DNA of 64,000 bases, from contig OZ024742.1 in the NCBI GenBank assembly GCA_964016885.1, positions 361,956,001 through 362,020,000 on the forward strand, in the 5' to 3' direction. Both the position numbers and the translations under genes were made by a program. The notes below the pieces were generated by a model, which had not been told where the DNA came from, did not search any database, and worked only from the letters and a program-made list of their open reading frames with translations. The stretch's first letter is position 1; every line of letters starts with the position of its first letter. The stretch comes from Eledone cirrhosa. Taxonomy: Eukaryota. Positions 8,281 to 62,761 of this stretch are shown here, one piece after another.

Positions 8281-11200
8281 TATATATCTATATTTAGACA
8301 TCTCCCCCACTGTAACTCTGCTTAATATAATGTATATATCAATATTTAGACATCTCCACACTCTAACTCTGCCAAATATAAGGTATATATCAATATTTAG
8401 ACAACTCCCCCACTAAGGCGGTGAATTGGCAGTATTGGTAGAGGCTAGGATATGCTTTCCAGCATAGTTACGTCCCTTTAGAATCTGAGTTCAATTCCCG
8501 CCGAGGTTTACTTTGCCTTTTATCCTTACGGGGTCGATAAAATAAAGTACCAGTAATGTACTGGGATAATTGCTGGCCTTGTGCCAAAAGTAGAAACAAT
8601 ATTTAGACATCTCCCCCACTGTAGCTCTGCCAAATATAATGTATATATCAATATTTAGACAACTCCCCAATTGTAGCACTGCCTAATATTATGTATATAT
8701 CAATATTTAGACATCTCCCCCACTATAGCTCTGTCTAATACAATGTATATATCAAAATTTAGACATCTCCCACTGTAACTCTGCCTAATCTAATGTATAT
8801 ATCAATATTTAGACATCTCCCCAATTGTAGCTCTGCCTAATATAATGTATATATCAGTATTTAGACATCTGCCCCACTGTAGCTCTGCCTAATCTAATAT
8901 ATATATATCTATATTTAGACTTTTCCCCCACTGTAACTCTGTCTAATCTAATGTATATATTAATATTCAGACATCTCCCCACTGTAACTCTGTCTAATAC
9001 AATGTATATATCAATATTTAGACATCACCCCCACCGTAGCTCTGTCTAATATAATGTATATATCAATATTAAGACAACTCCCAAATCGTAGCACTGCCTA
9101 ATATAATATATATATCTATATTTAGACATCTCCCCCACTGTAGCTCTGCCTAATCTAACGTATATATATCGATATTTAGACATCTCCCCCACAGTAGCTC
9201 TGCCTAATATAATGTATATATCAATATTTAGACATCTCCCCCACTATAGCTCTGTCTAAGCTAATGTATATATATCTATATTTAGACATCTCCCCCACTG
9301 TAGCTCTGCCTAATCTAATGTATATATCAATATTTAGACATCTCCCCCACTATAGCTCTGCCTAATGTAATGTATATATCTATGTTTAGACATCTCCCAC
9401 TGTAACTCTGCCTAATCTAATGTATATATCAATATTTAGACATCTCGCCCAGAGTAGCTCGGTCTAATCTAATGTATATATCAATATTCAGACATCTCCC
9501 CACTGTAACTCTGCCAACTATGATGTATATATCAATATTTAGACATCTCTCCCACTGTAACTCTGTCTAATACAACGTATATATCAATATTTAGACATCT
9601 CCCCAACCGTAGCTCTGCCTAATCTAATGTATATATCAATATTTAGACATCATCCCACTGTAACTCCGCCTAATCTAATGTATATATCATTATTTAGTCA
9701 TCTTCCCCACTGTAGCTCTGCCTAATCTAATGTATATATCAATATTTAGACATCTCCCCCACTGTAGCTCTGCCTAATCTAATGTATATATCAATATTTA
9801 GACATCATCCCACTGTAACTCCGCCTAATCTAATGTATATATCATTATTTAGTCATCACCCCCACTGTAGCTCTGCCTAATCTAATGTATATATCAATAT
9901 TCAGACATCTCCCCACTGTAGCTCTGCCTAATCTAATGTATATATCAATATTTAGACATCTCCCCCACTGTAGCTCTGCCTAATCTAATGTATATATCAA
10001 TATTTAGACATCTCCCCAGTGTAGCTCTGACTAATCTAATGTATATATCAATATTTAGACATCTCCCCCACTGTAACTCTGCCTAATCTAATGTATATAT
10101 CTATATTTAGACATCTCCCCCACTATAGCTCTGTCTAATACAATGTATATATCAATATTTAGACTTCTCCCCCACTGTAGCTCTGCCTAATCTAATGTAT
10201 ATATCAATATTTAGACATCTCCCCACTGTAGCTCTGACTAATCTAATGTATATATCAATATTTAGACATCTCCCCCACTGTAGCTCTGCCTAATCTAATG
10301 TATATATCAATATTTAGACATCTCCCCGGTGTAGCTCTGACTAATCTAATGTATATATCAATAGTTAGACATCTCCCCCACTGTAGCTCTGCCTAATCTA
10401 ATGTATATATCAATATTTAGACATCTCCCCCACTATAGCTCTGTGTAATCTAATGTATATATATCTATATTTAGACATCTCCCCCACTGTAGCTCTGCCT
10501 AATCTGATGTATATATATCTATATTTAGACATCTCCTCCACAGTAGCTCTGCCTAATATAATGTATATACCAGTATTTAGACATCTCCCCAACTGTAGCT
10601 CTGTCTAATCTAATGTATATATATCTATATTTAGACATCTCCCCACTGTAGATCTGCCTAATATAATGTATATATCAATATTTAGACATCTCCCCCACTG
10701 TAACTCTGTCTAATATAATGTATATATCAATATTTAGACATCTCATCCACTGTAGCTCTGTCTAATCTAATGTATATATCAATATTTAGAAATCTCCCCC
10801 ACTGTAGCTCTGCCTAATCTAATGTATATAATCAATATTTAGACATCTCCCCCACTGTAGCTCTGCCTAATCTAATGTATATATCAATATTTAGACATCT
10901 TATCCACTGTAGCTCTGTCTAATCTAATGTATATATCAATATTTAGAAATCTCCCCCACAGTAGCTCTGTCTAATATAATGTATATATCAATATTTGGAC
11001 ATCTCCCCCACTGTAACTCTGCCTAATATAATGTATATATCAATATTTAGACATCTCCCCCACTGTAACTCTGCCTAATGTAATGTATATATCTATATTT
11101 AGACATCTCCCCCACAGTAGCTCTGCCTAATATAATGTATATATCAATATTCAGACATCTCCCCCACAGTAACTCTGCCTAATGTAATGGATATATCTAT

Positions 11201-38939: not shown

Positions 38940-39126
38940 GGCGGTGGATTGGCAGTATCGGTAGAGGTTCGGACGCCATGCTTTGACGCATAGAGTTACG
39001 GCCCTTGCCATTCTGAGTTCAAATCCCGCCGAGGTTAACTTTGCCTTTCATCCTTACGGGGTCGATAAAATAAAGTACCAGTAATGTACTGGGTAATTTT
39101 CTGGCCTTGTGCCAATAGTAGAAACA
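38940..39126 (+). mobile_element. tRNA-derived SINE, full length, with a 17-bp TSD
   Basis: A box tggcagtatcggtag and B box gagttcaaatccc. Perfect TSD attatttcgcctacaat at 38923-38939 and 39127-39143. Confidence 0.95.
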
Positions 39127-41570: not shown

Positions 41571-42911
41571 GCGGTGGATTAGCAGTAGTGAACAGATAAA
41601 TCAGTCAATGTATTAAGATTGACTTGGCATCAATCAGCAAGACCTTCATTAGCTGCTCTCCAGCCATCTATTTAAAGCTGTATACATCTATGGTACGAAT
41701 ACACTTGGAGTTCGCGTCATCAGTCTGGAACCCCTATCTTGCTCAGAACATTGACCTCCTGGAAACTGTTCAGAGACATGCAACCAAGCGCATACCCTCC
41801 ATCAGACACCTACCATACCCTGAATATTTTGCTTCCCTCTGGCAATGGACTTGGTAAACACCCACAAAGTTATTAACCATCCGACCAACAACAACCCCGA
41901 ACACCTTTTTGATCTCCATGTGTCTAACACGTGGACATGCCTACAAAGTCAGAAAACAACACAGCTCCCATGACTTTAGGAAATATTTCTTCATGCTCAG
42001 AGTTGCTGAAGGATGGAACAAACTTCCTGCATCAGTTGTTAGCTGATGACACACTGCATCCTTTAAAACCATCATACATTCCGAAATACACCAAAACTAC
42101 ACCTGATGTCCCCCTTCCATACACATGCACATATGTGTATATCATGACTCATGCACTGTTCTTTTTTCATGACGTTTTTATATTACCCTATGTATTATAT
42201 ATGCACTTTTGATGAGTTGTAGTGCACCTCAGCATTGTACACAATATTTTCATTATTATTATCATTATTATTATTACACTCATTGATCCATTTTGCACTA
42301 ACTCTGCATCAAGCACCCTCACCTAAATATTAACCAATCAAGGATCCAATACAGCTATCTGTTGGATGAGTATTGTATAGTGCCCAAAACGAAACCAATC
42401 AGTTTAGCAGAAAGTTTCCAGACAAGAAACACGCATATTTTGCTATCCTCAAACACGTTTACACATGGCATGAAATATAACTAATCCGAGATGGCTAGGT
42501 TTCATCTTCTAACTGGATATACGAAATCCATTATGTCTTGACAACAACATGAGGTAACATTATGTTATTCACAGACACACTTTGTACACTGTTCCATATC
42601 AGAATGTATTTCCTTCGTCACATTCACAAACAGTATTGAAAATATGTTCTTCGGCAAATAAAAATGTTTTGTTCATAATATTTCAACTAGCGATTGCTCT
42701 ACTCCACGCACGACCACCATAAATTAATGACCAGCTCAACACAAGTATTGGTAGAGCGTCAGACACCATGCTTTGCAGTATTGTTATGGTCCTTTGCATT
42801 CTAAGTTCAAATCCTGCCGAGGTTAACTTCGACTTTCATACTTACTAATTCGATAAAATAAAGTACCAGTAATGGACTGCCGTAATGGATTTGTGCCGAA
42901 AAATAGAAACA
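41571..42911 (+). mobile_element. SINE split by a ~1.16-kb insertion (5' piece 41571-41587, 3' piece 42744-42911)
   Basis: gcggtggattagcagta joins agtattggtagagcgtcagacaccatgc...gttcaaatcc...gaaaca to rebuild the SINE seen at 38940; agta is present at both junctions. Confidence 0.75.
41623..42276 (+). mobile_element. 5'-truncated, degenerate CR1-type LINE 3' end
   Basis: Encodes LYTSMVRIHLEFASSVWNPY...LETVQRHATK (CR1-like RT C-terminus) with frameshifts, followed by a 3' UTR and (ATT)n tail. Homologous to 61882-62559. Confidence 0.88.
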
Positions 42912-43461
42912 CTATTAATGTGCAATAAGAGCAAAATATAACGACATTGCTCAATTATTTTATCTAATGTTGTAATAACACAAGGAAATGTTGTTTGTGT
43001 ATTTTTTTTTATATTTGCTCATAGGCTTTTACAATTTCGCTCAGCCAACAACTATTAAAAAGTGAGTTGCTTAAGATAACAATTTAATCACAAATTGTTG
43101 CTATCTTTTAATACACTCCAACAAGTCATCAAATTATGTACAATAAAAACAAATCTTATTAATTTGCTCAGGGAATATAAAGAAAATGTATATACACTGA
43201 TAATTGCAATGTAAATATTTTGTTTTGTATTGTTTATTTTATGTTTTCTATTATGTATAATATATTGATTTAATATTGATTGTTTTTTGTAGTTGTTTAT
43301 ATTAAAAGTCTGAAAATATTTTTATACATCTTACACTAATATTTATAAGATAATTTATAATAACAATTACATAATCTAATTACATTACAACGATAATTTA
43401 TTATTAATATATATCCTGTTTAACTAGAGTTATTACAAGCGTTGCCTTAAAAAAATATTAA

Positions 43462-44418
43462 ACTAGACATGAAAAATGCGCAAGCTCAAAGGTGCCACAG
43501 AATGTTATAATAAACCTTCAAAAGTGTGGGACTAGAGTTGTTGCTAAAAAATATTGTAATCATTATATATCGTACATTCTGTGGCATCCTTTATAAAAAT
43601 AGCTTAAACCAACGAAGCCTTTATTTTTACGCTATTTCACTTAGTTAATTCTTAGAGTGTAACATATAAAAATAAATACATCTATGTTTAATGTAATAAC
43701 AGCTATAAATAATTACGTAATATTATTATCATATACTCATAGTAACAAAATAATCGTGTTGAAAATTAATATGATGCTTATATGAACGATCAAATCTATA
43801 ATGATAATTTCTTAAATATACTAATAGTAAAATAATTTAGTTATCTATTGTTACATTTTCATAGAACTATAATATTAACAATCGTATTGCATTATCAAAT
43901 TTTTATCACTACAAACTTTCATATTGGAATTACCTTAAGCCACTTATTATTACTTCGCTTTCGTACTTTTACAGCTGTAGATATTGCGCTGTATCTTATA
44001 TCTAATATCAATATCTCATGGTAATTTGCATGCAGTGTAAAATAGGTTTATTAATAACTTTAATATGAAATGTATTATACAGGGCTGCGGAGTCGGCCAA
44101 AAATTGACTGGCTCCAACTCAGGATCCGATACTCCATTATTTCCTAAATTTCAGCTCCGCAGCTCTGTTATTATATTAATTAATTTATTTTATAGTTGTA
44201 AATCATATTTTTATATGTTACACTCTAAGAATTAACTAAGTGAAATAGCGTAAAAATAAAGGCTTCGTTGGTTTAAGCTATTTTTATAAAGGATGCCACA
44301 GATTGTACGATATATAATGATTACAATATTTTTTAGCAACAACTCTAGTCCCACACTTTTGAAGGTTTATTATAACATTCTGTGGCACCTTTGAGCTTGC
44401 GCATTTTTCATGTCTAGT
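43462..44418. mobile_element. Non-autonomous foldback/MITE element with 213-bp terminal inverted repeats
   Basis: TIRs at 43462-43674 and 44206-44418 (one mismatch seen). Termini actagacatg...catgtctagt, AT-rich non-coding interior. TSD unclear (aa on the left, ta on the right of the CTAG ends). Confidence 0.9.
44080..44167. mobile_element. 88-bp hAT-type MITE nested in the foldback element
   Basis: TIRs cagggctgcggag / ctccgcagctctg (12 of 13 match). 8-bp flanks gtattata / ttattata (7 of 8 match). Confidence 0.8.
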
Positions 44419-47400
44419 ATATATATATTTAGACATCTCCCCAACCGTAGCTCTGCCTAATCTAATGTATATATCAATATTCAGACATCTCCCCACTGTA
44501 ACTGTGCCTAGTATAATGTATATATCAATATTTAGTCATCTCCCCCACTGTAGCTCTGCCTAATCTAATGTATATATATATATTTAGACATCTCCCCCAC
44601 TGTAGCTCTGCCAAATAGAATGTATATATCAATATTTAGACATCTCCCCACTGTAGCTCTGACAAATATAATGTATATATCAATATTTAGACATCTCCCC
44701 AGTGTAGTTCTGCCTAATCTAATGTATATATCAACATTTAGACATCTCCCCTCTGTAGCTCTGCCTAATCTAATGTATATATCAATATTTAGACATCTCC
44801 CCCACTATAGCTCTGTCTAATCTAATGTATATATATCTATAATTAGACATCTCCCCCACAGTAGCTCTGCCTAATATAATGTATATATCAGTATTTAGAC
44901 ATCTCCCCCACTGTAACTCTGTCTAATCTAATGTATATATCAATATTCAGAATTCTCCCCACTGTAACTCTGCCTAATATAATGTATATATCAATATTTA
45001 GACATCTCCCCCACTGTAGCTCTGCCTAATATAATGTATATATCAATATTTAGACATCTCCCCCACTGTAGCTCCGCCTAATCTAATGTACAAATCAATA
45101 TTAAAGACATCTCCCCACTGTAGCTCTGACAAATATAATGTATATATATATATTTAGACATCTCCCCCATAGTAGCTCTGCCTAATGTAATGTATATATG
45201 TATATTTAGACATCTCTCCACCGTAGCTCTGCCAAATATAATGTATATATATATATTTAGACATCTCCCCCACTGTAACTCTGTCTAATATAATGTATAT
45301 ATCAATATTTAGTCATCACCCCCACCGTAGCTCTGCCTAATCTAATGTATATATCAATATTTAGACATCTCCCCATTGTAACTCTGCCTGATCTATTGTA
45401 TATATCAATATTTAGACATCTCGCCTACTGTAGCTCTGCCTAATATAATGTATATATCAATATTTAGACATCTCCCCCACTGTAGCTCTGTCTAATCTAA
45501 TGTATATATCAATATTTAGACATCTCCCCCACTGTAACTCTGCCTAATGTAATGTATATATCTATATTTAGACATTTCACCACAGTAGCTCTGCCTAATA
45601 TAATGTATATATCAATATTTAGACATTTCACCACAGTAGCTCTGCCTAATATAATGTATATATCAATATTTAGACATTTCACCACAGTAGCTCTGCCTAA
45701 TCTAATGTATATATCATTATTTAGTCATCTTCCCCACTGTAGCTCTGCCTAATCTAATGTATATATAAATATTTAGACATCTCCCCACTGTAACTTTGTC
45801 TAATCTAATGTATATATCAATATTTAGACATCTCCCCCACTGTAGCTCTGCCTAATATAATGTATATATCAATATTTAGACATTTCACCACAGTAGCTCT
45901 GCCTAATATAATGTATATATCAATATTTAGACATTTCACCACAGTAGCTCTGCCTAATCTAATGTATATATCATTATTTAGTCATCTACCCCAATGTAAC
46001 TCTGCCTAATCTAATGTATATATCATTATTTAGTCATCTCCCCCACTGTAGCTCTGCCTAATATAATGTATATATCAACATTTAGACATTTCCCCACTGT
46101 AACTCTGCCTTATATAATGTATATATCTATATTTAGACATCTCCCACTGTAGCTCTGCCTAATATAATGTATATATCTATATTTAGACATCTCCCCCACT
46201 GTAGCTCTGTCTAATATAATGTATATATCTATTTTTAGACATCTCCCCCACTGTAACTCTGTCTAATCTAATGTATATATCAATATTTAGACATCTCCCC
46301 AGTGTAGCTCTGCCTAATCTAATGTATATATCAACATTTAGACATCTCCCCACTGTAGCTCTGTCTAATCTAATGTATATATATCAATATTTAGACATCT
46401 CCCCCACAGTAGCTCTGTCTAATATAATGTATATACCAATATTTGGACATCTCCCCCAATGTAGCTCTGCCTAATATAATGTATATATCAATATTTAGAC
46501 ATCTCCCCAGTGTAGCTCTGCCTAATCTAATGTATATATCAACATTTAGACATCTCCCCACTGTAGCTCTGTCTAATCTAATGTATATATCAACATTTAG
46601 ACATCTCCCCACAGTAGCTCTGTCTAATATAATGTATATATCAATATTTGGACATCTTCCCCACTATAGCTTTGTCTAATCTAATGTATATATATCTATA
46701 TATAGACATCTCCCCCACTATAGCTCTGTCTAATCTAATGTATATATATCTATAATTAGACATCTCCCCCACAGTAGCTCTGCCTAATTTTAATGTATAT
46801 ATCAGTATTTAGACATCTCCCCCACTGTAACTCTGTCTAATCTAATGTATATATCAATATTCAGACTTCTCCCCACTGTAACTCTGCCTAATCTAATGTA
46901 TACATCAATATTTAGACATCTCCCCACTGTAGCTCTGCCTAATCTAATGTATATATCAATATTTAAACATCTCCCCCACAGTAGCTCTGTCTAATCTAAT
47001 GTATATATCTAAATCTAATGTATATATCTATATTTAGACATCTCCCCACTGCAAATCTGCCAAAAATAACGTATATATCAATATTTAGACATGTCCCCCA
47101 CAGTAGCTCTGCCTAATATAATGTATATATCAATATTTAGACATCTCCTCCACCGTAGCTCTGCCTAATATAATGTATATATCAATATTTAGACATGTCC
47201 CCCACTGTAACTCTGCCAAATATAATGTATATATCAATATTTAGACATCTCCCCCACTGTAGCTCTGCCTAATATAATGTATATATCTATATTTTGACAT
47301 CTCCTCCACCGTAGCTCTGCCGAATATAATGTATATATCAATATTTAGACATGTCCCCCACTGTAGCTCTGCCTAATCTAACGTATATATATATATTTAG

Positions 47401-47750
47401 ACATCTTCCCTACTGTAATTCTGTCTAATCTAATGTATATATATATATATAGACATCTTCCCCACAGTAGCTCTGCCTAATATAATGTATATACCAGTAT
47501 TTAGACATCTCCCCCACTGTAGCTCTGTCTAATCTAATGTATATATATCAATATTTAGACATCTCCCCCACTGTACCTCTGTCTAATATAATGTATATAT
47601 CAATATTTAGATATCTCATCCACTGTAGCTCTGTCTAATCTAATGTATATATATCAATATTTAGACATCTCCCCCACAGTAGCTCTGTCTAATATAATGT
47701 ATATATATAATATATATAATGTATATATTATATATATATAATGTATATAT

Positions 47751-48456
47751 TCTCTCAACGAATCACACTTGATCATATTTCTCTATCCTGTTTTCTCCCC
47801 CCATAATTATTATATTTTTATTATTTTTTATTATTGTTTGAAAAAAATCGTTTTTTTTTACATTGTGTTTTCCCCTCCAAATATTCGCTTATATTTCCTT
47901 ATATATTCTTTATATATTTTTTATCTTTATTATTATTTCCACTTTTATCCTCCTTTATATTTTACCTCATTCTTACCTTTATACCTTATTATAGTGTAAT
48001 CTTCCCCATGCCTTATTATACACTATTAATTATAGATTATTATTATTACTCTTTTTCCATTTCTAATTACCTCATGTACCTTCTCCTCCGCTATATGTAT
48101 ATATGTATTCTACGCCGTTTGTGTTTGTGTAGCCTCTGCGCACCCTCTGCACCATACTATCCACGCCACCCCATCTATGGTTCAGCTAACCACCCGACCC
48201 CCGGGAATGAATATGACCGCAGCTAGTAAACAAGGACCAACACCCCACCCTCCCGCACCAAAATTAGACTTATCGTCCCCTACTTTTGCTCTTTACTCTC
48301 TTTACTCTTTGTTCTTGGGTGTTTGGTTGGTAGAGTCCATAACACCAATCAAACCCCTTTTATAGCTCTGATGATTCCTACGGTTACACGTAAGGAAGAA
48401 ACATTGTTAGCCAATAAAAATCTTTTGATGTTGTAGACGCTCTTGTGTTCTTTTTC
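47751..48456 (+). mobile_element. 706-bp hammerhead-bearing Penelope-like/retrozyme-like element, copy 1
   Basis: T-rich non-coding body, hammerhead near the 3' end followed by AATAAA and a T-rich terminus. Flanked by atataatgtatatat (47736-47750 and 48457-48471). Confidence 0.75.
48358..48419 (+). ncRNA. Type I hammerhead ribozyme, copy 1
   Basis: Helix I ttttat-a-gct / agc-ca-ataaaa; core CTGATGA (48368-48374); helix II ttcc-tacg / cgta-a-ggaa with loop gttaca; GAAA (48398-48401); minimal helix III c-att-g; predicted cleavage triplet GUU, cut after 48408. Confidence 0.8.
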
Positions 48457-51400
48457 ATATAATGTATATATCAATATTTGGATATCTCCCCCACTATAGC
48501 TCTGTCTAATACAATGTATATATCAATATTTAGACATCTCCCCCACTGTAGCTCTGCCTAATATAATGTATATATCAATATTTAGACATCTCCCCCACTA
48601 TAGGTCTGTCTAATCTAATGTATATATATCTATATTTAGACATCTCCCCCACTGTAGCTCTGCCTAATATAATGTATATATCAATATTTAGACATCTCCC
48701 CCACTATAGCTCTGTCTAATCTAATGTATATATATCTATAATTAGACATCTCCCCCACAGTAGCTCTGCCTAATTTTAATGTATATATCAGTATTTAGAC
48801 ATCTCCCCCACTGTAACTCTGTCTAATCTAATGTATATATCAATATTCAGACTTCTCCCCACTGTAACTCTGCCTAATCTAATGTATATATCAATATTTA
48901 GACATCTCCCCACTGTAGCTCTGCCTAATCTAATGTATATATCAATATTTAAACATCTCCCCCACAGTAGCTCTGTCTAATCTAATGTATATATCTAAAT
49001 CTAATGTATATATCTATATTTAGACATCTCCCCACTGCAAATCTGCCAAAAATAACGTATATATCAATATTTAGACATCTCCCCCACTGTAACTCCACCT
49101 AATCTAATGTACATATCAATATTTAGACATCTCCTCCACCGTAGCTCTGCCTAATATAATGTATATATCAATATTTAGACATGTCCCCCACAGTAGCTCT
49201 GCCTAATATAATGTATATATCAATATTTAGACATGTCCCCCACCGTAGCTCTGCCTAATCTAATGTATATATATATATTTAGACATCTTCCCCACTGTAA
49301 TTCTGTCTAATCTAATGTATATATATATATATAGACATCTTCCCCACAGTAGCTCTGCCTAATATAATGTATATACCAGTATTTAGACATCTCCCCCACT
49401 GTAGCTCTGTCTAATCTAATGTATATATATCAATATTTAGACATCTCCCCCACTGTACCTCTGTCTAATATAATGTATATATCAATATTTAGATATCTCA
49501 TCCACTGTAGCTCTGTCTAATCTAATGTATATATCTATATTTAGACATCTCCCCACTGCAAATCTGCCAAATATAATGTATATATCAATATTTAGACATC
49601 TCCTCCACTGTAGCTCTGCCTAATGTAATGGATATATCTATATTTAGACATCTCCCCCACTGTAGCTCTGCCTAATCTAATGTATATATCAATATTTAGA
49701 CATCTCCCCAGTGTAGCTCTGCCTAATCTAATGTATATATCAATATTTAGACATCATCCCACTGTAACTCCGCCTAATGTAATGTATATATCTATATTTA
49801 GACATCTCCCACTGTAGCTCTGCCTAATATAATGTATATATCAATATTTAGACATTTCACCACAGTAGCTCTGCCTAATATAATGTATATATTAATATTT
49901 AGACATCTCCCCCACTGTAGCTCTGCCTAATCTAATGTATATATCAATATTTAGACATCATCCCACTGTGACTCTGCCTATTCTAATGTATATATCATTA
50001 TTTAGTCATCTTCCCCACTGTAGCTCTGCCTAATCTAATGTATATATCAATATTCAGACATCTCCCCCATTGTAACTCTGCCTAATATAATGTATATATC
50101 AATATTTAGTCATCTCCCCCACTGTAGCTCTGCCTAATCTAATGTATATATATATATTTAGACATCTCCCCCACTGTAGCTCTGCCAAATATAATGTATA
50201 TATCATTATTTAACATCTCCCCCACTATAGCTCTGTCTAATCTAATGTATATATCAATATTTAGACATCTTCCCCACTGTAACTCTGCCAAATACAATGT
50301 ATATATCAATATTTAGAAATCTCCCACTGTAGCTCTGCCAAAATATAATGTATATATCAATATTTAGACATCTCTCCCACTGTAACTCTGTCTAATCTAA
50401 TGTATATATATATATTTAGACATCTCCCCCACAGTTGCTCTGCCTAATATAATGTATATATCAACATTTAGACATCTCCCCACTGCAGCTCTGCCAAATA
50501 TAATGTATATATCAACATTTAGACATCCCCCCACTGTAACTCTGTCTAATATAATATATATATCTATATTTAGACATCTCCCACTGTAGCTCTGCCTAAT
50601 ATAATGTATATATCTATATTTAGACATCTCCCCCACTGTAGCTCTGTCCAATATAATGTATATATCTATTTTTAGACATCTCCCCCACTGCAACTCTGTC
50701 TAATCTAATGTATATATCAATATTTAGACATCTCCCCCACTGTAGCTCCGCCTAATCTAATGTATATATCAATATTTAGACATCTCCCCCACAGTAGCTC
50801 TGTCTAATATAATGTATATATCTATATTTAGACATCTCCCCCACTGTAGCTCCGCCTAATCTAATGTATATATCAATATTTGGACATCTCCCCCACTATA
50901 GCTCTGTCTAATCTAATGTATATATATCTATATTTAGACATCTCCCCCACTGTAGCTCCGCCTAATCTAATGTATATATCAATATTTGGACATCTCCCCA
51001 CTATAGCTCTGTCTAATCTAATGTATATATCAATATTTAGACATCATCCCACTGTAACTCCGCCTAATCTAATGTATATATATATATTTAGACATCTCCC
51101 CCACTGTAGCTCTGCCTAATATAATGTATATATCAATATTTAGACATGTCCCCCACTGTAGCTCTGCCTAATCTAATGTATATATCAATATTTAGACATC
51201 TCCCCCACTGTAGCTCTGCCTAATCTAACGTATATATATATATTTAGACATCTTCCCCACTGTAATTCTGTCTAATCTAATGTATATATATATATTTAGA
51301 CATCTTCCCCACTGTAATTCTGCCTAATGTAATGTATATATCAATATTTAGACATCTCCCCCACTGTAACTCTGCCTAATGTAATGTATATATCAATATT

Positions 51401-51646
51401 TAGACATCTCCCCCACTGTAACTCTGCCTAATGTAATGTATATATCAATATTTAGACATCATCCCACTGTAACTCCGCCTAATCTAATGTATATATCATT
51501 ATTTAGTCATCTTCCCCACTGTAGCTCTGCCTAATCTAATGTATATATATCAATATTTAGACATCTCCCCCACAGTAGCTCTGTCTAATATAATGTATAT
51601 ATATAATATATATAATGTATATATTATATATATATAATGTATATAT

Positions 51647-52352
51647 TCTCTCAACGAATCACACTTGATCATATTTCTCTATCCTGTTTTCTCCCTCCAT
51701 AATTATTATATTTTTATTATTTTTTATTATTGTTTGAAAAAAATCGTTTTTTTTTACATTGTGTTTTCCCCTCCAAATATTCGCTTATATTTCCTTATAT
51801 ATTCTCTATATATTTTTTATCTTTATTATTATTTCCACTTTTATCCTCCTTTATATTTTACCTCATTCTTACCTTTATACCTTATTATAGTGTAATCTTC
51901 CCCATGCCTTATTATACACTATTAATTATAGATTATTATTATTACTCTTTTTCCATTTCTAATTACCTCATGTACCTTCTCCTCCGCTATATGTATATAT
52001 GTATTCTACGCCGTTTGTGTTTGTGTAGCCTCTGCGCACCCTCTGCACCATACTATCCACGCCACCCCATCTATGGTTCAGCTAACCACCCGACCCCCGG
52101 GAATGAATATGACCGCAGCTAGTAAACAAGGACCAACACCCCACCCTCCCGCACCAAAATTAGACTTATTGTCCCCTACTTTTGCTCTTTACTCTCTTTA
52201 CTCTTTGTTCTTGGGTGTTTGGTTGGTAGAGTCCATAACACCAATCAAACCCCTTTTATAGCTCTGATGATTCCTACGGTTACACGTAAGGAAGAAACAT
52301 TGTTAGCCAATAAAAATCTTTTGATGTTGTAGACGCTCTTGTGTTCTTTTTC
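51647..52352 (+). mobile_element. 706-bp Penelope-like/retrozyme-like element, copy 2
   Basis: Near-identical to copy 1 at offset 3896, with the same junction sequences. Confidence 0.75.
52254..52315 (+). ncRNA. Type I hammerhead ribozyme, copy 2
   Basis: Identical to 48358-48419; CTGATGA at 52264-52270. Confidence 0.8.
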
Positions 52353-53977
52353 ATATAATGTATATATCAATATTTGGATATCTCCCCCCCTATAGCTCTG
52401 TCTAATACAATGTATATATCAATATTTAGACATCTCCCCCACTGTAGCTCTGCCTAATCTAATGTATATATCAATATTTAGACATCTCCCCCACTATAGG
52501 TCTGTCTAATCTAATGTATATATATCTATATTTAGACATCTCCCCCACTGTAGCTCTGCCTAATATAATGTATATATCAATATTTAGACATCTCCCCCAC
52601 TATAGCTCTGTCTAATCTAATGTATATATATCTATAATTAGACATCTGCCCCACAGTAGCTCTGCCTAATATAATGTATATATCAGTATTTAGACATCTC
52701 CCCCACTGTAACTCTGTCTAATCTAATGTATATATCAATATTTAGACATCTCCCCCACAGTAGCTCTGCCTAATATAATGTATATATCAATATTTAGACA
52801 TCTCCCCCACTGTAGCTCTGCCTAATATAATGTATATATCAATATTTAGACATCTCCCCCCACTGTAACTCTGCCTAATGTAATGTATATATCTATATTT
52901 AGACATCTCCCCACTGCAATCTGCCAAAAATAACGTATATATCAATATTTAGACATCTCCCCCACTGTAACTCTGTCTAATATAATGTATATATCAATAT
53001 TTAGACATCTCGCCTACTGTAGCTCTGCCTAATCTAATGTATATATCAATATTTAGACATCTCCCCCACTGTAGCTCTGTCTAATCTAATGTATATATCA
53101 ATATTTAGACATCTCCCCCACTGTAACTCTGCCTAATGTAATGTATATATCAATATTTAGACATCTCCCCCACTGTAACTCTGCCTAATGTAATGTATAT
53201 ATCAATATTTAGACATCTCCCCCACTGTAACTCTGCCTAATGTAATGTATATATCAATATTTAGACATCTCCCCCACTGTAACTCTGCCTAATATAATGT
53301 ATATATCAATATTTAGACATCTGCCCCACTGTACCTCTGTCTAATCTAATGTATATATCAATATTTAGACATCTCCCCCACTGTAACTCTGCCTAATGTA
53401 ATGTATATATCTATATTTAGACCTCTCCCACTGTAGCTCTGCCTAATATAATGTATATATCAATATTTAGACATCTCCCCCACTGTAGCTCTGCCTAATC
53501 TAATGTATATATCAATATTTAGACATCATCCCACTGTAACTCCGCCTAATCTAATGTATATATCATTACTTAGTCATCTTCCCCACTGTAGCTCTGCCTA
53601 ATCTAATGTATATATATCAATATTTAGACATCTCCCCCACAGTAGCTCTGTCTAATATAATGTATATATATAATATATATAATGTATATATTATATATAT
53701 ATAATGTATATATTCTCTCAACGAATCACACTTGATCATATTTCTCTATCCTGTTTTCTCCCCCCATAATTATTATATTTTTATTATTTTTTATTATTGT
53801 TTGAAAAAAATCGTTTTTTTTTACATTGTGTTTTCCCCTCCAAATATTCGCTTATATTTCCTTATATATTCTCTATATATTTTTTATCTTTATTATTATT
53901 TCCACTTTTATCCTCCTTTATATTTTACCTCATTCTTACCTTTATACCTTATTATAGTGTAATCTTCCCCATGCCTT

Positions 53978-54134
53978 GGTCGGACGCCATGCTTTCTAGC
54001 ATAGTTACGTCCCTTTACGATCTGAGTTCAAATCCCGCCGAAGTTGACTTTGCCTTTCATCCTTACGGGGTCGATAAAATAAAGTACCAGTGAGGCACTG
54101 GGTAGTTGCTGGCCTTGTGCCTAAAGTAGAAACA
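53978..54134 (+). mobile_element. 5'-truncated SINE inserted in copy 3
   Basis: 157 bp, B box gagttcaaatccc, central domain and 3' gtagaaaca. Replaces attatacact, which is present in copies 1 and 2. Confidence 0.92.
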
Positions 54135-54467
54135 ATTAATTATAGATTATTATTATTACTCTTTTTCCATTTCTAATTACCTCATGTACCTTCTCCTCCG
54201 CTATATGTATATATGTATTCTACGCCGTTTGTGTTTGTGTAGCCTCTGCGCACCCTCTGCACCATACTATCCACGCCACCCCATCTATGGTTCAGCTAAC
54301 CACCCGACCCCCGGGAATGAATATGACCGCAGCTAGTAAACAAGGACCAACACCCCACCCTCCCGCACCAAAATTAGACTTATCGTCCCCTACTTTTGCT
54401 CTTTACTCTCTTTACTCTTTGTTCTTGGGTGTTTGGTTGGTAGAGTCCATAACACCAATCAAACCCC

Positions 54468-54529
54468 TTTTATAGCTCTGATGATTCCTACGGTTACACG
54501 TAAGGAAGAAACATTGTTAGCCAATAAAA
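54468..54529 (+). ncRNA. Type I hammerhead ribozyme, copy 3
   Basis: Identical to 48358-48419; CTGATGA at 54478-54484. Confidence 0.8.
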
Positions 54530-57500
54530 ATCTTTTGATGTTGTAGACGCTCTTGTGTTCTTTTTCATATAATGTATATATCAATATTTGGATATCTCCC
54601 CCACTATAGCTCTGTCTAATACAATGTATATATCAATATTTAGACATCTCCCCCACTGTAGCTCTGCCTAATATAATGTATTTATCAATATTTAGACATC
54701 TCCCCCACTATAGGTCTGTCTAATCTAATGTATATATATCTATATTTAGACATCTCCCCCACTGTAGCTCTGCCTAATATAATGTATATATCAATATTTA
54801 GACATCTCCCCCACTATAGCTCTGTCTAATCTAATGTATATATATCTATAATTAGACATCTGCCCCACAGTAGCTCTGCCTAATATAATGTATATATCAG
54901 TATTTAGACATCTCCCCCACTGTAACTCTGTCTAATCTAATGTATATATCAATATTTAGACATCTCCCCCACAGTAGCTCTGCCTAATATAATGTATATA
55001 TCAATATTTAGACATCTCCCCCACTGTAGCTCTGCCTAATATAATGTATATATCAATATTTAGACATCTCCCCCACTGTAACTCTGCCTAATGTAATGTA
55101 TATATCTCAATTCAGACATCTCCCCACTGTAACTCTGCCTAATATAATGTATATATCTATATTTAGACATGTCCCCCACTATAGCTCTGCCTAATCTAAT
55201 GTATATATATATATTTAGACATCTCCCCCACTGTAGCTCTGCCTAATGTAATGTATATATCTATATTTAGACATCTCCCCACCGTAGCTCTGCCAAATAT
55301 AATGTATATATATATATTTAGACATCTCCCCACCGTAGCTCTGCCTAATCTAATGTATATATCAATATTTAGACATCGCCCCACTGTAACTCTTCCTGAT
55401 TTATTGTATATATCAATATTTAGACATCTCGCCTACTGTAGCTGTACCTAATATAATGTATATATCAATATTTAGACATCTCCCCCACTGTAACTCTGCC
55501 TAATGTAATGTATATATCTATATTTAGACATCTCCCACTGTAGCTCTGCCTAATATAATGTATATATCAATATTTAGACATTTCACCACAGTAGCTCTGC
55601 CTAATATAATGTATATATTAATATTTAGACATCTCCCCCACTGTAGCTCTGCCTAATCTAAGGTATATATCAATATTTAGACATCATCCCACTGTGACTC
55701 TGCCTATTCTAATGTATATATCATTATTTAGTCATCTTCCCCACTGTAGCTCTGCCTAATCTAATGTATATATCAATATTTAGACATCTCCCCCACAGTA
55801 GCTCTGTCTAATATAATGTATATATCAATATTTAGACATCTCCCCCACTGTAGCTCCGCCTAATCTAATGTATATATCAATATTTAGACATCTCCCCCAC
55901 AGTAGCTCTGTCTAATATAATGTATATATCTATATTTAGACATCTCCCCCACTGTAGCTCCGCCTAATCTAATGTATATATCAATATTTAGACATCATCC
56001 CACTGTGACTCTGCCTATTCTAATGTATATATCATTATTTAGTCATCTTCCCCACTGTAGCTCTGCCTAATCTAATGTATATATCAATATTCAGACATCT
56101 CCCCCACTGTAACTCTGCCTAATATAATGTATATATCAATATTTAGTCATCTCCCCCACTGTAGCTCTGCCTAATCTAATGTATATATATATATTTAGAC
56201 ATCTCCCCCACTGTAGCTCTGCCAAATATAATGTATATATCATTATTTAACATCTCCCCCACTATAGCTCTGTCTAATCTAATGTATATATCAATATTTA
56301 GACATCTCCCCCACTGTAACTCTGCCAAATACAATGTATATATCAATATTTAGAAATCTCCCACTGTAGCTCTGCCAAAATATAATGTATATATCAATAT
56401 TTAGACATATCTCCCACTGTAACTCTGTCTAATCTAATGTATATATATATATTTAGACATCTCCCCCACAGTTGCTCTGCCTAATATAATGTATATATCA
56501 ACATTTAGACATCTCCCCACTGCAGCTCTGCCAAATATAATGTATATATCAACATTTAGACATCCCCCCACTGTAACTCTGTCTAATATAATATATATAT
56601 CTATATTTAGACATCTCCCACTGTAGCTCTGCCTAATATAATGTATATATCTATATTTAGACATCTCCCCCACTGTAGCTCTGTCCAATATAATGTATAT
56701 ATCTATTTTTAGACATCTCCCCCACTGCAACTCTGTCTAATCTAATGTATATATCAATATTTAGACATCTCCCCCACAGTAGCTCTGTCTAATATAATGT
56801 ATATATCAATATTTAGACATCTCCCCCACTGTAGCTCCGCCTAATCTAATGTATATATCAATATTTAGACATCTCCCCCACAGTAGCTCTGTCTAATATA
56901 ATGTATATATCTATATTTAGACATCTCCCCCACTGTAGCTCCGCCTAATCTAATGTATATATCAATATTTGGACATCTCCCCCACTATAGCTCTGTCTAA
57001 TCTAATGTATATATATCTATATTTAGACATCTCCCCCACTGTAACTCCGCCTAATCTAATGTATATATCAATATTTAGACATCTCCCCCACAGTAGCTCT
57101 GTCTAATATAATGTATATATCAATATTTAGACATCTCCCCCACTGTAGCTCTGCCTAATATAATGTATATATCAATATTTAGACATGTCCCCCACTGTAG
57201 CTCTGCCTAATCTAATGTATATATCAATATTTAGACATCTCCCCCACTGTAGCTCTGCCTAATCTAATGTATATATATATATTTAGACATCTTCCCCACT
57301 GTAATTCTGTCTAATCTAATGTATATATATATATTTAGACATCTTCCCCACTGTAATTCTGCCTAATGTAATGTATATATCAATATTTAGACATCTCGCC
57401 TACTGTAGCTCTGCCTAATCTAATGTATATATCAATATTTAGACATCTCCCCCACTGTAGCTCTGTCTAATCTAATGTATATATCAATATTTAGACATCT

Positions 57501-60500
57501 CCCCCACTGTAACTCTGCCTAATGTAATGTATATATCAATATTTAGACATCTCTCCCACTGTAACTCTGCCTAATGTAATGTATATATCAATATTTAGAC
57601 ATCTCCCCCACTGTAACTCTGCCTAATGTAATGTATATATCAATATTTAGACATCTCCCCCACTGTAACTCTGCCTAATATAATGTATATATCAATATTT
57701 AGACATCTGCCCCACTGTACCTCTGTCTAATCTAATGTATATATCAATATTTAGACATCTCCCCCACTGTAACTCCGCCTAATCTAATGTATATATCATT
57801 ATTTAGTCATCTTCCCCACTGTAGCTCTGCCTAATCTAATGTATATATCAATATTCAGACATCTCCCCCACTGTAACTCTGCCTAATATAATGTATATAT
57901 CAATATTTAGTCATCTCCCCCACTGTAGCTCTGCCAAATATAATGTATATATCATTATTTAACATCTCCCCCACTATAGCTCTGTCTAATCTAATGTATA
58001 TATCAATATTTAGACATCTCCCCCACTGTAACTCTGCCAAATACAATGTATATATCAATATTTAGAAATCTCCCACTGTAGCTCTGCCAAAATATAATGT
58101 ATATATCAATATTTAGACATATCTCCCACTGTAACTCTGCCTAATATAATGTATATATCTATATTTAGACATGTCCCCCACTATAGCTCTGCCTAATCTA
58201 ATGTATATATATATATTTAGACATCTCCCCCACTGTAGCTCTGCCTAATGTAATGTATATATCTATATTTAGACATCTCCCCACCGTAGCTCTGCCAAAT
58301 ATAATGTATATATATATATTTAGACATCTCCCCACCGTAGCTCTGCCTAATCTAATGTATATATCAATATTTAGACATCGCCCCACTGTAACTCTTCCTG
58401 ATTTATTGTATATATCAATATTTAGACATCTCGCCTACTGTAGCTGTACCTAATATAATGTATATATCAATATTTAGACATCTCCCCCACTGTAACTCTG
58501 CCTAATGTAATGTATATATCTATATTTAGACATCTCCCACTGTAGCTCTGCCTAATATAATGTATATATCAATATTTAGACATTTCACCACAGTAGCTCT
58601 GCCTAATATAATGTATATATTAATATTTAGACATCTCCCCCACTGTAGCTCTGCCTAATCTAAGGTATATATCAATATTTAGACATCATCCCACTGTGAC
58701 TCTGCCTATTCTAATGTATATATCATTATTTAGTCATCTTCCCCACTGTAGCTCTGCCTAATCTAATGTATATATCAATATTCAGACATCTCCCCCACTG
58801 TAACTCTGCCTAATATAATGTATATATCAATATTTAGTCATCTCCCCCACTGTAGCTCTGCCTAATCTAATGTATATATATATATTTAGACATCTCCCCC
58901 ACTGTAGCTCTGCCAAATATAATGTATATATCATTATTTAACATCTCCCCCACTATAGCTCTGTCTAATCTAATGTATATATCAATATTTAGACATCTCC
59001 CCCACTGTAACTCTGCCAAATACAATGTATATATCAATATTTAGAAATCTCCCACTGTAGCTCTGCCAAAATATAATGTATATATCAATATTTAGACATC
59101 TCTCCCACTGTAACTCTGTCTAATCTAATGTATATATATATATTTAGACATCTCCCCCACAGTTGCTCTGCCTAATATAATGTATATATCAACATTTAGA
59201 CATCTCCCCACTGCAGCTCTGCCAAATATAATGTATATATCAACATTTAGACATCCCCCCACTGTAACTCTGTCTAATATAATATATATATCTATATTTA
59301 GACATCTCCCACTGTAGCTCTGCCTAATATAATGTATATATCTATATTTAGACATCTCCCCCACTGTAGCTCTGTCCAATATAATGTATATATCTATTTT
59401 TAGACATCTCCCCCACTACAACTCTGTCTAATCTAATGTATATATCAATATTTAGACATCTCCCCCACAGTAGCTCTGTCTAATATAATGTATATATCAA
59501 TATTTAGACATCTCCCCCACTGTAGCTCCGCCTAATCTAATGTATATATCAATATTTAGACATCTCCCCCACAGTAGCTCTGTCTAATATAATGTATATA
59601 TCTATATTTAGACATCTCCCCCACTGTAGCTCCGCCTAATCTAATGTATATATCAATATTTAGACATCATCCCACTGTGACTCTGCCTATTCTAATGTAT
59701 ATATCATTATTTAGTCATCTTCCCCACTGTAGCTCTGCCTAATCTAATGTATATATCAATATTCAGACATCTCCCCCACTGTAACTCTGCCTAATATAAT
59801 GTATATATCAATATTTAGTCATCTCCCCCACTGTAGCTCTGCCTAATCTAATGTATATATATATATTTAGACATCTCCCCCACTGTAGCTCTGCCAAATA
59901 TAATGTATATATCATTATTTAACATCTCCCCCACTATAGCTCTGTCTAATCTAATGTATATATCAATATTTAGACATCTCCCCCACTGTAACTCTGCCAA
60001 ATACAATGTATATATCAATATTTAGAAATCTCCCACTGTAGCTCTGCCAAAATATAATGTATATATCAATATTTAGACATATCTCCCACTGTAACTCTGT
60101 CTAATCTAATGTATATATATATATTTAGACATCTCCCCCACAGTTGCTCTGCCTAATATAATGTATATATCAACATTTAGACATCTCCCCACTGCAGCTC
60201 TGCCAAATATAATGTATATATCAACATTTAGACATCCCCCCACTGTAACTCTGTCTAATATAATATATATATCTATATTTAGACATCTCCCACTGTAGCT
60301 CTGCCTAATATAATGTATATATCTATATTTAGACATCTCCCCCACTGTAGCTCTGTCCAATATAATGTATATATCTATTTTTAGACATCTCCCCCACTGC
60401 AACTCTGTCTAATCTAATGTATATATCAATATTTAGACATCTCCCCCACAGTAGCTCTGTCTAATATAATGTATATATCAATATTTAGACATCTCCCCCA

Positions 60501-61881
60501 CTGTAGCTCCGCCTAATCTAATGTATATATCAATATTTAGACATCTCCCCCACAGTAGCTCTGTCTAATATAATGTATATATCTATATTTAGACATCTCC
60601 CCCACTGTAGCTCCGCCTAATCTAATGTATATATCAATATTTGGACATCTCCCCCACTATAGCTCTGTCTAATCTAATGTATATATATCTATATTTAGAC
60701 ATCTCCCCCACTGTAACTCCGCCTAATCTAATGTATATATCAATATTTAGACATCTCCCCCACAGTAGCTCTGTCTAATATAATGTATATATCAATATTT
60801 AGACATCTCCCCCACTGTAGCTCTGCCTAATATAATGTATATATCAATATTTAGACATGTCCCCCACTGTAGCTCTGCCTAATCTAATGTATATATCAAT
60901 ATTTAGACATCTCCCCCACTGTAGCTCTGCCTAATCTAATGTATATATATATATTTAGACATCTTCCCCACTGTAATTCTGTCTAATCTAATGTATATAT
61001 ATATATTTAGACATCTTCCCCACTGTAATTCTGCCTAATGTAATGTATATATCAATATTTAGACATCTCGCCTACTGTAGCTCTGCCTAATCTAATGTAT
61101 ATATCAATATTTAGACATCTCCCCCACTGTAGCTCTGTCTAATCTAATGTATATATCAATATTTAGACATCTCCCCCACTGTAACTCTGCCTAATGTAAT
61201 GTATATATCAATATTTAGACATCTCTCCCACTGTAACTCTGCCTAATGTAATGTATATATCAATATTTAGACATCTCCCCCACTGTAACTCTGCCTAATG
61301 TAATGTATATATCAATATTTAGACATCTCCCCCACTGTAACTCTGCCTAATATAATGTATATATCAATATTTAGACATCTGCCCCACTGTACCTCTGTCT
61401 AATCTAATGTATATATCAATATTTAGACATCTCCCCCACTGTAACTCCGCCTAATCTAATGTATATATCATTATTTAGTCATCTTCCCCACTGTAGCTCT
61501 GCCTAATCTAATGTATATATCAATATTTAGACATCTCCACACTGTAACTCTGTCTAATCTAATGTATATATATATATTTAGACATCTCCCCCACAGTAGC
61601 TCTGCCTAATGCAATGTACATATCAATATTTAGACATCTCCCCACTGCAGCTCTGCCAAATAAAATGTATATATCAATATTTAGACATCTCCCCACTGCA
61701 GCTCTGCCAAATATAATGTATATATCAATATTTAGACATCTCCCCAACCGTAGCTCTGTCTAATCTAACGTATATATATATCTATATTTAGACATCTCCC
61801 CACTGCAGCTCTGCCTAATCTAATGTATATATCAATATTTAGACATCACCCCCACTGTAACTCTGCCTAATCTAATGTATA

Positions 61882-62559
61882 GCACGTCTCTAAAATTGTC
61901 AAGAGGGCTGAGGGTGTCTTAGCATCACTCAGCAAGAGCGTTATCAGCTGCTCTCCAGCTATGTTTTTAAGCCTGTATATGGCTATGGTGCGGACACACT
62001 TAGCATTTGCATCACCAGTTTGGAACCCCTATCTTGCTCAGAAGATTGACCGCCTGGAAACTGTTCAGAGACGTGCAACCAAGCTAATACCCTCCATCAG
62101 GCATCTACCATACTCTGAGTGCCTTGCTTCCCTGGGTAGGGATACATTGAAGCTACAACGCCTGGCAACTGACTTGTTAAACACCCACAAAATTGTTAAC
62201 CATCTTGCCAACAACGACCCTGAGTACCTTTTTGATTTCCATGTGTCTAACACACGTGGGCATGCCCACAAAGTAAGAAAACAGTACAATTCCCATGACT
62301 CACGCTCAGAGTTGCTGAAGCATGGAACAAACTACCGGCATCAGTTGTTAGCTGTCGAGACATGCATCCTTTAAGGCCTCCATGCTTCCCGAGATTCGCC
62401 AACACTACACCTAATGTTCCTCCTCCATACACATACACACATGTATATCATGACTCATACACTATTCACTTCCCTGACATTTGTGTATTATTCTATGTAC
62501 TACACATGCACCTCTGACGTGTTGTCGCGCACCTGAGCACTTTACACAATAATTTCATT
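61882..62559 (+). mobile_element. 5'-truncated CR1-type LINE 3' end inserted in the satellite
   Basis: ORF 61961-62374 reads LYMAMVRTHLAFASPVWNPY...LETVQRRATKLIP...TRGHAHKV (CR1-like RT C-terminus); the 3' UTR ends in aataatttcatta. Confidence 0.9.
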
Positions 62560-62761
62560 ATATTTAGACCTCTCCCCCACAGTAGCTCTGCCTAATCTAA
62601 TGTATATATCAATATTTAGACATCTTCCCCACTGTAACTCTGCCAAATATAATGTATATCTATATTTAGACCCCCCCCCCCCCACTGTAGCTCTGCCTAA
62701 TATAATGTATATATCTATATTTAGACATCTCCCCCACTGTGAACTGCTCTATCTAATCTAA
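62560..62761. repeat. Last ~4 degenerate satellite monomers; end of the array
   Basis: Monomers with an expanded C run and indels, followed by non-satellite sequence. Confidence 0.9.

What the first reader, a model, noticed from the sequence alone, without database searches (positions are those of the whole stretch)
47751..54566. Three intact hammerhead ribozymes co-amplified inside a satellite array
Seen: three copies of a 706-bp non-coding insert each contain an identical, complete type I hammerhead fold, on the same strand, spaced 3896 and 2214 bp apart by satellite DNA. The fold has helix I, CUGAUGA, an 8-bp helix II, GAAA and a GUU site. Known: Penelope-like elements and metazoan retrozymes carry type I hammerheads, and some transcribed satellites (newt satellite 2, schistosome SM-alpha) self-cleave. 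Inferred: a read-through plus-strand transcript would be cut into defined 3.9-kb and 2.2-kb RNAs made mostly of satellite, which could be heterochromatin RNAs or templates for retro-mobilisation of the satellite. Here the ribozyme was captured into the array rather than being part of the monomer.
Basis: partly seen in the sequence, partly recalled or inferred. Interest (0 to 1): 0.8.

Follow-up and report, generated by a model that had tools for sequence, protein, structure and literature searches.

The report
Penelope retrotransposon tail triplicated in satellite
The three hammerhead motifs are the ordinary 3' tail of an abundant Penelope-like retrotransposon that inserted once into a satellite array and was then most likely copied twice by the array's routine duplications, with no sign so far that they do anything for the satellite.

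Summary
The three hammerhead motifs are real, identical and at the stated positions. The insert is not a free ribozyme cassette. It is the last 706 bp (pseudo-LTR) of a young, dispersed, ~5.1-kb Penelope-like element with an 846-aa RT + GIY-YIG frame that carries the Hydra-clade motifs. The genome has 1,045 exact matches to this family's hammerhead core. The three window copies come from one insertion: same truncation point, same 15-bp flanking repeat, three shared private variants, and a junction found only here. The array duplicates kilobase blocks routinely, including a whole LINE. Copy 3 is 853 bp, not 706, because a SINE landed in it. Helix III is not predicted to form in a monomer. No Rfam family matches. 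The satellite occurs at this one locus only, so it shows no retro-mobilisation. Transcription and cleavage could not be tested. Verdict: passive duplication of a known kind of element.

The parts
47751..48456 (+). Copy 1: 5'-truncated 3' end (pseudo-LTR) of a Hydra-type Penelope-like element, 706 bp
   Evidence: Aligns over its full length to the 3' end of full-length elements, and to the upstream pLTR of some; up to 99.2% identical to dispersed copies
51647..52352 (+). Copy 2, 706 bp, 3 substitutions from copy 1
53714..54566 (+). Copy 3, 853 bp, 1 substitution from copy 1 plus a SINE insertion
53978..54131 (+). 5'-truncated SINE with a B-box-like GAGTTCAAATCC, replacing 7 bp of copy 3; no clear target-site duplication
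   Evidence: 76-91% identical to other copies in the window at 921-1102, 8415-8596, 38940-39124 and 42744-42916. The SINE label rests on a recalled B-box motif; ARAGORN finds no tRNA
48358..48419 (+). Type I hammerhead motif, copy 1: helix I 48358-67/48409-19, CUGAUGA 48368-74, helix II 48375-97, GAAA 48398-401, palindromic helix III ACAUUGU 48401-07, predicted cut 48408/48409, AATAAA 48413-18
52254..52315 (+). Type I hammerhead motif, copy 2, predicted cut 52304/52305
54468..54529 (+). Type I hammerhead motif, copy 3, predicted cut 54518/54519
47736..47750 (+). 15-bp direct repeat left of copy 1, matching 48457-48471; likely target-site duplication in the TA-rich part of the monomer, preceded by about 35 bp of scrambled TA-rich filler; the same at all three copies
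   Evidence: the repeat is monomer sequence, so the TSD reading is inferred
44417..61881 (+). Part of the 51-52-bp satellite array that holds the three copies; the whole array spans about C3:361.914-362.018 Mb

Best explanation
The three inserts are the 3' pseudo-LTR of an abundant Hydra-type Penelope-like retrotransposon, inserted once into the satellite and then likely triplicated passively by unequal exchange between satellite monomers. Steps: (1, shown) the family is young, dispersed and still has copies with a whole RT + GIY-YIG frame, and its hammerhead lies 48 nt before the element's 3' end. (2, inferred) One copy was reverse-transcribed into the TA-rich stretch of a monomer and truncated after 706 bp. 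(3, shown) All three copies descend from that event; (inferred) misaligned recombination or gene conversion copied 1.1-1.4-kb blocks, as it did other blocks in the array. (4, inferred) A SINE then inserted in copy 3. The hammerhead would serve the parent element's RNA, probably as a dimer or with the element's protein. Here it is probably a passenger, intact only because the copies are too young to have decayed.
For: Dispersed family: 1,631 first-look candidates, 40 scored; the 40 best matches are 99-100% identical and lie on 11 contigs. Exact family-type hammerhead cores number 1,045. Full-length copies measure 5,040-5,113 bp from hammerhead to hammerhead in 4 of the 5 loci examined. An 846-aa frame carries RWL (RWR in two other copies), DKT, YRDD, CxCX5C, Y..YIG, CxxC and CxH, the Hydra diagnostics in PMC8557442 (section 11 read). 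All 31 terminal ends outside the window are followed by TA-rich DNA, most by pure (TA)n (one locus counted twice). One origin: identical junctions; variants at 47968, 48117 and 48375 are shared by the three copies and absent from 32 of 32 other full-span alignments, i.e. 30 distinct copies; the 3' junction occurs 3 times in 3.0 Gb, all here. Passive duplication: near-exact blocks of 7508, 2387, 2100, 1303 and 1107 bp without any hammerhead lie in the same array, the longest with a LINE. Shared flanks stop 116-507 bp into the satellite, not at the cut site. The satellite is single-locus.
Against: No RNA data, so silence or lack of cleavage is not shown. The duplications are not clean head-to-tail units: the shared flanks explain only part of each spacer, so the exact recombination history is not resolved. 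The U variant at 48375 adds a pair to helix II and could alter activity; it also occurs once elsewhere (C4). Hydra membership rests on motifs, with no tree against reference families. Pfam GIY-YIG scored below its cut-off on two fragments (E 0.007-0.009) and not at all on the whole protein.
Confidence: 0.88

Rival explanations
1. Same origin, but the locus is active: a promoter in the solo pseudo-LTR drives read-through into the satellite, and pairs of hammerheads dimerise and cut out 3.9-kb and 2.2-kb RNAs. The pLTR-satellite-pLTR layout mimics a full element, so the family's RT/EN could use these RNAs as templates.
For: All core nucleotides are intact. Helix III is palindromic and can form an intermolecular duplex of -4.1 kcal/mol. 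In full elements the two hammerheads are also about 5.1 kb apart. The subfamily differences in the motif fall at tolerant positions (N7, loop II, H17), which suggests the parent ribozyme is under selection. PMC11167929 says PLE transcription likely starts in the pLTR (passage).
Against: No satellite outside this locus (268 of 268; two weak 71-73% hits elsewhere were not followed up). The junction is not dispersed. The monomer is predicted to misfold. A schistosome PLE hammerhead showed no monomer cleavage and low dimer cleavage (PMC4209133). The Anolis PLE hammerhead did not cleave without protein, was not needed for insertion in vitro, and no RNA-seq reads ended at its site; that protein binds ORF sequence (PMC11167929), and the insert here contains no ORF sequence.
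Confidence: 0.07
2. The extra copies were made through RNA: a read-through transcript holding satellite and pLTR was reverse-transcribed back into the array by the PLE protein, not duplicated by DNA recombination.
For: Every monomer offers a TA-rich target, and the Anolis PLE nicks AT-rich DNA, including its own pLTR (PMC11167929).
Against: Homology extends into satellite on both sides of each copy and does not start or stop at the cut site or the element end. Blocks without a hammerhead are duplicated in the same way.
Confidence: 0.03
3. The triplication is an assembly error in a hard-to-assemble array.
For: The array holds one 7,508-bp block duplicated with no mismatch. No contig of four public runs spans the stretch.
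Against: The copies differ by 1-3 substitutions, one carries a SINE, and their spacers differ.
Confidence: 0.02

Closest known systems
Hydra clade of Penelope-like elements (Craig et al. 2021, PMC8557442)
   Same: C-terminal GIY-YIG after the RT; RWK-like, DKT, CxCX5C, CxxC and CxH motifs; no CCHH; (TA)n targets; hammerhead near the 3' end. The paper's supplementary table shows Hydra hammerheads with an extra base on each side of helix II and a short palindromic helix III, as here.
   Different: About 5.1 kb with a ~2.4-kb 3' untranslated part and an 846-aa frame with two low-complexity insertions, against 'generally <3 kb'. The hammerhead sequence matches none of those listed, including Hydra-1_oBim, so this is a separate family.
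Metazoan PLE minimal hammerheads (Cervera and De la Pena 2014, PMC4209133)
   Same: Type I, long helix II (7-8 bp), unpaired base after A9, palindromic helix III, mostly found as single motifs from truncated PLEs.
   Different: No G10.1-C11.1 pair (A.A in the family, U-A in the window copies).
Non-LTR retrozymes and hammerhead satellites (newt satellite 2, schistosome and Dolichopoda repeats; PMC7229834; bioRxiv 10.64898/2026.07.22.740005)
   Same: Several same-strand type I hammerheads in a tandem context; a PLE pLTR origin is proposed for retrozymes.
   Different: There the hammerhead is in every 150-450-bp monomer and the unit is dispersed and expressed. Here it sits in 3 inserts within a ~104-kb array of 52-bp monomers, the spacers are unequal, and the unit is not dispersed.

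Membership tests
Hydra-clade PLE (parent element) | Single frame with RT followed by C-terminal GIY-YIG endonuclease | tested here: met
   846 aa, YRDD at 353, Y..YIG at 726-741; Pfam GIY-YIG below cut-off on fragments; relatives annotated GIY-YIG
Hydra-clade PLE (parent element) | RWK motif and DKT in place of DKG | tested here: met
   RWR in L066 and L071, RWL in L063; DKT at 122
Hydra-clade PLE (parent element) | CxCX5C linker; CxxC and CxH around the conserved E and N; no CCHH, no CX2-5CxxC | tested here: met
   CNCRRSSNC at 705, CDLC at 803, CQH at 831; no CX2-5CxxC; a single Cys inside the GIY-YIG core
Hydra-clade PLE (parent element) | pLTRs, partial tandem and inverted copies, hammerhead in the pLTR, (TA)n targets | tested here: met
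Hydra-clade PLE (parent element) | Generally shorter than 3 kb (a tendency, not a diagnostic) | tested here: not met
   5,040-5,113 bp
Hydra-clade PLE (parent element) | Phylogenetic placement with reference Hydra RTs | not tested
Type I hammerhead ribozyme | Core CUGANGA...GAAA...UH with helices I and II | tested here: met
Type I hammerhead ribozyme | G10.1-C11.1 closing pair | tested here: not met
   U-A here, A.A in 49 of 53 held copies; listed Hydra hammerheads vary here too
Type I hammerhead ribozyme | Helix III stable as a monomer | tested here: not met
   Pair probability 0.0; palindromic, so a dimer form is possible
Type I hammerhead ribozyme | Match to an Rfam hammerhead model | tested here: not met
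Type I hammerhead ribozyme | Self-cleavage at the GUH site | not testable with these tools
   needs an in vitro assay
Non-LTR retrozyme / hammerhead satellite | Hammerhead in each consecutive 150-450-bp tandem monomer | tested here: not met
   52-bp monomer; 3 motifs in 64 kb, spacers 3896 and 2214
Non-LTR retrozyme / hammerhead satellite | Unit dispersed over the genome | tested here: not met
Non-LTR retrozyme / hammerhead satellite | Expressed as unit-length linear and circular RNA | not testable with these tools
   no RNA holder listed

The most novel reading that the evidence does not exclude
The locus is a retrozyme in the making. Array turnover has built pLTR-satellite-pLTR cassettes; a pLTR promoter and dimerising hammerheads release 3.9-kb and 2.2-kb satellite RNAs, possibly circular, that the still-intact Hydra RT/endonuclease could mobilise. 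It would be a snapshot of how hammerhead-bearing satellites arise from Penelope elements, caught before any dispersal.
Probability: 0.07. Interest if true: 0.6.

Novelty: new member of a known kind. Interest (0 to 1): 0.15.

Why it matters
As it stands it matters little: one of more than a thousand tails of a Penelope-like family, multiplied by satellite turnover. Two modest uses remain. The parent family is an apparently unlisted, unusually long and young Hydra-type element with whole reading frames, a fair candidate for PLE biochemistry. And the three private variants make RNA from this locus distinguishable from the rest of the family, so the question of whether a solo pLTR transcribes and cuts flanking satellite can be tested cheaply.

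Tried and rejected
Rfam: no hammerhead family matched; the three weak hits (malK-II, Fluoride, TMV_UPD-PK3) are far below gathering score. Expression: no RNA holder was listed; the four runs laid are contigs of unknown kind from one study and say nothing on transcription or RNA ends. First hammerhead descriptor: faulty, it missed the real sites, so its shuffle count is discarded; repaired. Naiad clade: considered first and rejected because Naiads have an N-terminal endonuclease. A reverse-strand RT fragment upstream in L032 belongs to a different family and was not used. PDB search with the 846-aa protein: 0 hits at E<=1. Pfam on the whole protein gave only D5_N over 36 residues, which I treat as spurious. 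The monomer-level parse of the spacers was rough (some monomers merged) and is not used for counts. Three independent insertions: rejected by identical junctions and shared private variants. Earlier findings of this scan: none by place or by sequence. Five paper searches, seen as listings, showed no title describing this family or a PLE pLTR amplified inside an unrelated satellite; that is not proof of absence from print. Supplements of the bioRxiv retrozyme paper were not seen and could list related cases.
Full report
Observation. The window is mostly a 51-52-bp satellite, all on one strand. Three inserts at 47751-48456, 51647-52352 and 53714-54566 interrupt it. They differ by 1-3 substitutions; the third is 853 bp because a 154-bp SINE fragment replaces 7 bp. 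Each ends in the same type I hammerhead motif, with predicted cuts 3896 and 2214 nt apart. A descriptor finds these 3 sites and no others in the window, and 2 hits in 20,000 resamples of the insert. Rfam does not recognise the motif. Helix II is well predicted (7 of 8 pairs at probability 0.75 or more). Helix I core pairs are at about 0.45 and helix III at 0.0; the active monomer fold lies 5.5 kcal/mol above the MFE. Helix III is a palindrome (ACAUUGU) that can pair between two copies (-4.1 kcal/mol).

What the insert is. A search of the own genome with its last 307 bp gave 1,631 candidates; 40 were scored, and the 40 best matches are 99-100% identical, on 11 contigs. Of the 30 loci fetched, only the 3 window copies have the satellite around them. 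Dispersed copies extend upstream to different lengths and often sit in inverted or partial-tandem pairs. Following them upstream led to full-length elements. These have an upstream pLTR, an 846-aa frame, a long 3' untranslated part and the same 3' end, 5,040-5,113 bp from hammerhead to hammerhead in 4 of 5 loci examined; in the fifth the upstream motif missed my pattern. The protein has RWR/RWL, DKT, YRDD, CxCX5C, Y..YIG, CxxC and CxH, and lacks CX2-5CxxC and CCHH. These are the diagnostics of the Hydra clade in PMC8557442 (passages, section 11 and part 2 of the supplement read). A homolog search found 830 proteins at E<=1e-20 among 8,000 scored, the listed ones 30-44% identical and mostly unnamed; seven of them share CxCX5C, CxxC and CxH in an alignment. 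All 31 terminal ends outside the window are followed by TA-rich DNA. Exact matches to the family-type hammerhead core number 1,045. Among 53 held copies (2 partial hits dropped, L027 left out as overlapping L014) the core is nearly invariant, and a subfamily of 7 differs at N7, loop II and H17, all tolerant positions. That is a hint, no more, that the parent ribozyme is under selection.

One insertion, later copied. The three copies share the truncation point, a 15-bp flanking direct repeat and the scrambled TA filler on the left. They share variants at 47968, 48117 and 48375 that are absent from 32 of 32 other full-span alignments (30 distinct copies). The 48375 variant occurs 4 times in the genome, 3 of them here. 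The 3' junction occurs 3 times, all here. Near-identity between copies runs 116-287 bp into the satellite on the left and 294-507 bp on the right, then stops; it does not start or stop at the cut site. The same array holds many other near-exact duplicated blocks with no hammerhead, 1.1-2.4 kb long, and a 7,508-bp block with a LINE (RVT_1 plus endonuclease) duplicated without a mismatch. Duplication of whatever lies in this array is routine. The shared flanks do not account for the whole spacers, so further turnover followed and the exact order of events is not resolved.

Retro-mobilisation of the satellite predicts dispersed satellite. All 109 exact matches of one monomer pattern and all 268 matches of another (1 mismatch allowed) lie on one strand in C3:361.914-362.018 Mb. 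A DNA search gave 99 of 101 matches in this array and two weak 71-73% hits elsewhere, not followed up; it scored 8 of 10 candidates. Defined RNAs need transcription and cleavage. No RNA run was listed, so neither is tested. Published behaviour of PLE hammerheads is weak: none as monomer and low as dimer for a schistosome motif (PMC4209133, parts 1-2 of 4 read). For the Anolis element there was no cleavage without protein, no need for cleavage in insertion, and no RNA-seq ends at the site (PMC11167929, passages). Retrozymes and hammerhead satellites carry the motif in every 150-450-bp monomer (PMC7229834, passages; bioRxiv 10.64898/2026.07.22.740005, part 1 of 5); this locus fails that test. 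In favour of activity: the core is intact, the U variant adds a pair to helix II, and full elements also hold their two hammerheads about 5 kb apart.

Host. The genome is 3.0 Gb. The SINE motif recalls octopus repeats; that is from memory and untested. PMC8557442 lists a Hydra family from Octopus bimaculoides whose hammerhead differs from this one. The O. vulgaris repeat paper PMC13282606 has no occurrence of 'Hydra' or 'hammerhead' (passages).

Verdict. A real motif with an ordinary explanation: a solo pseudo-LTR of a new family in a known PLE clade, passively triplicated (0.88). An active, incipient retrozyme-like cassette is not excluded (0.07). Interest 0.15.

Noticed in passing
window 4675-8596, its copy ending at 1102, and L073: A LINE with an open 1040-aa frame (4973-8092, minus strand; RVT_1, endonuclease, PHD-like hit) and a SINE lie in a 7,494-bp tandem duplication with no mismatch over 7,508 bp: very recent, or an assembly artefact.
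   Followed up: partly
G000:C3:361.914-362.018 Mb: The 51-52-bp satellite is a single-locus array of about 104 kb, strongly C-skewed on the plus strand; whether it lies inside a gene was not checked.
   Followed up: partly
window 43451-44430: A 225-bp inverted repeat pair (98% identical) encloses about 530 bp of AT-rich DNA at the edge of the array; looks like a MITE.
   Followed up: no
L065 (element-orientation 674-2365) and L032:2000-3830 minus: Other Hydra-type PLE families sit right beside copies of this one, one with a 564-aa open stretch and a 698-bp perfect inversion.
   Followed up: no
L066:7235-7325 minus; L070: A second hammerhead-like motif family with a long helix I and an AT-only palindromic helix III; its fold is no better than shuffles (z -0.22).
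   Followed up: partly
L063 and L064 (C2:362.47 and 362.23 Mb): Two full-length elements share 99% identity over 9.9 kb including flanks: a segmental duplication; L063 keeps the whole 846-aa frame, L064 has a broken one.
   Followed up: no
L011 and L070: Two other copies carry insertions of about 180 bp in the same part of the pLTR as the SINE in copy 3 (window equivalents about 48022-48053), each with a 14-15-bp overlap; possibly a SINE target hot spot.
   Followed up: no
window 41620-42256 and 61915-62561: Two 77%-identical fragments that look like LINE 3' ends, one at the right edge of the array; label from recalled motifs.
   Followed up: no
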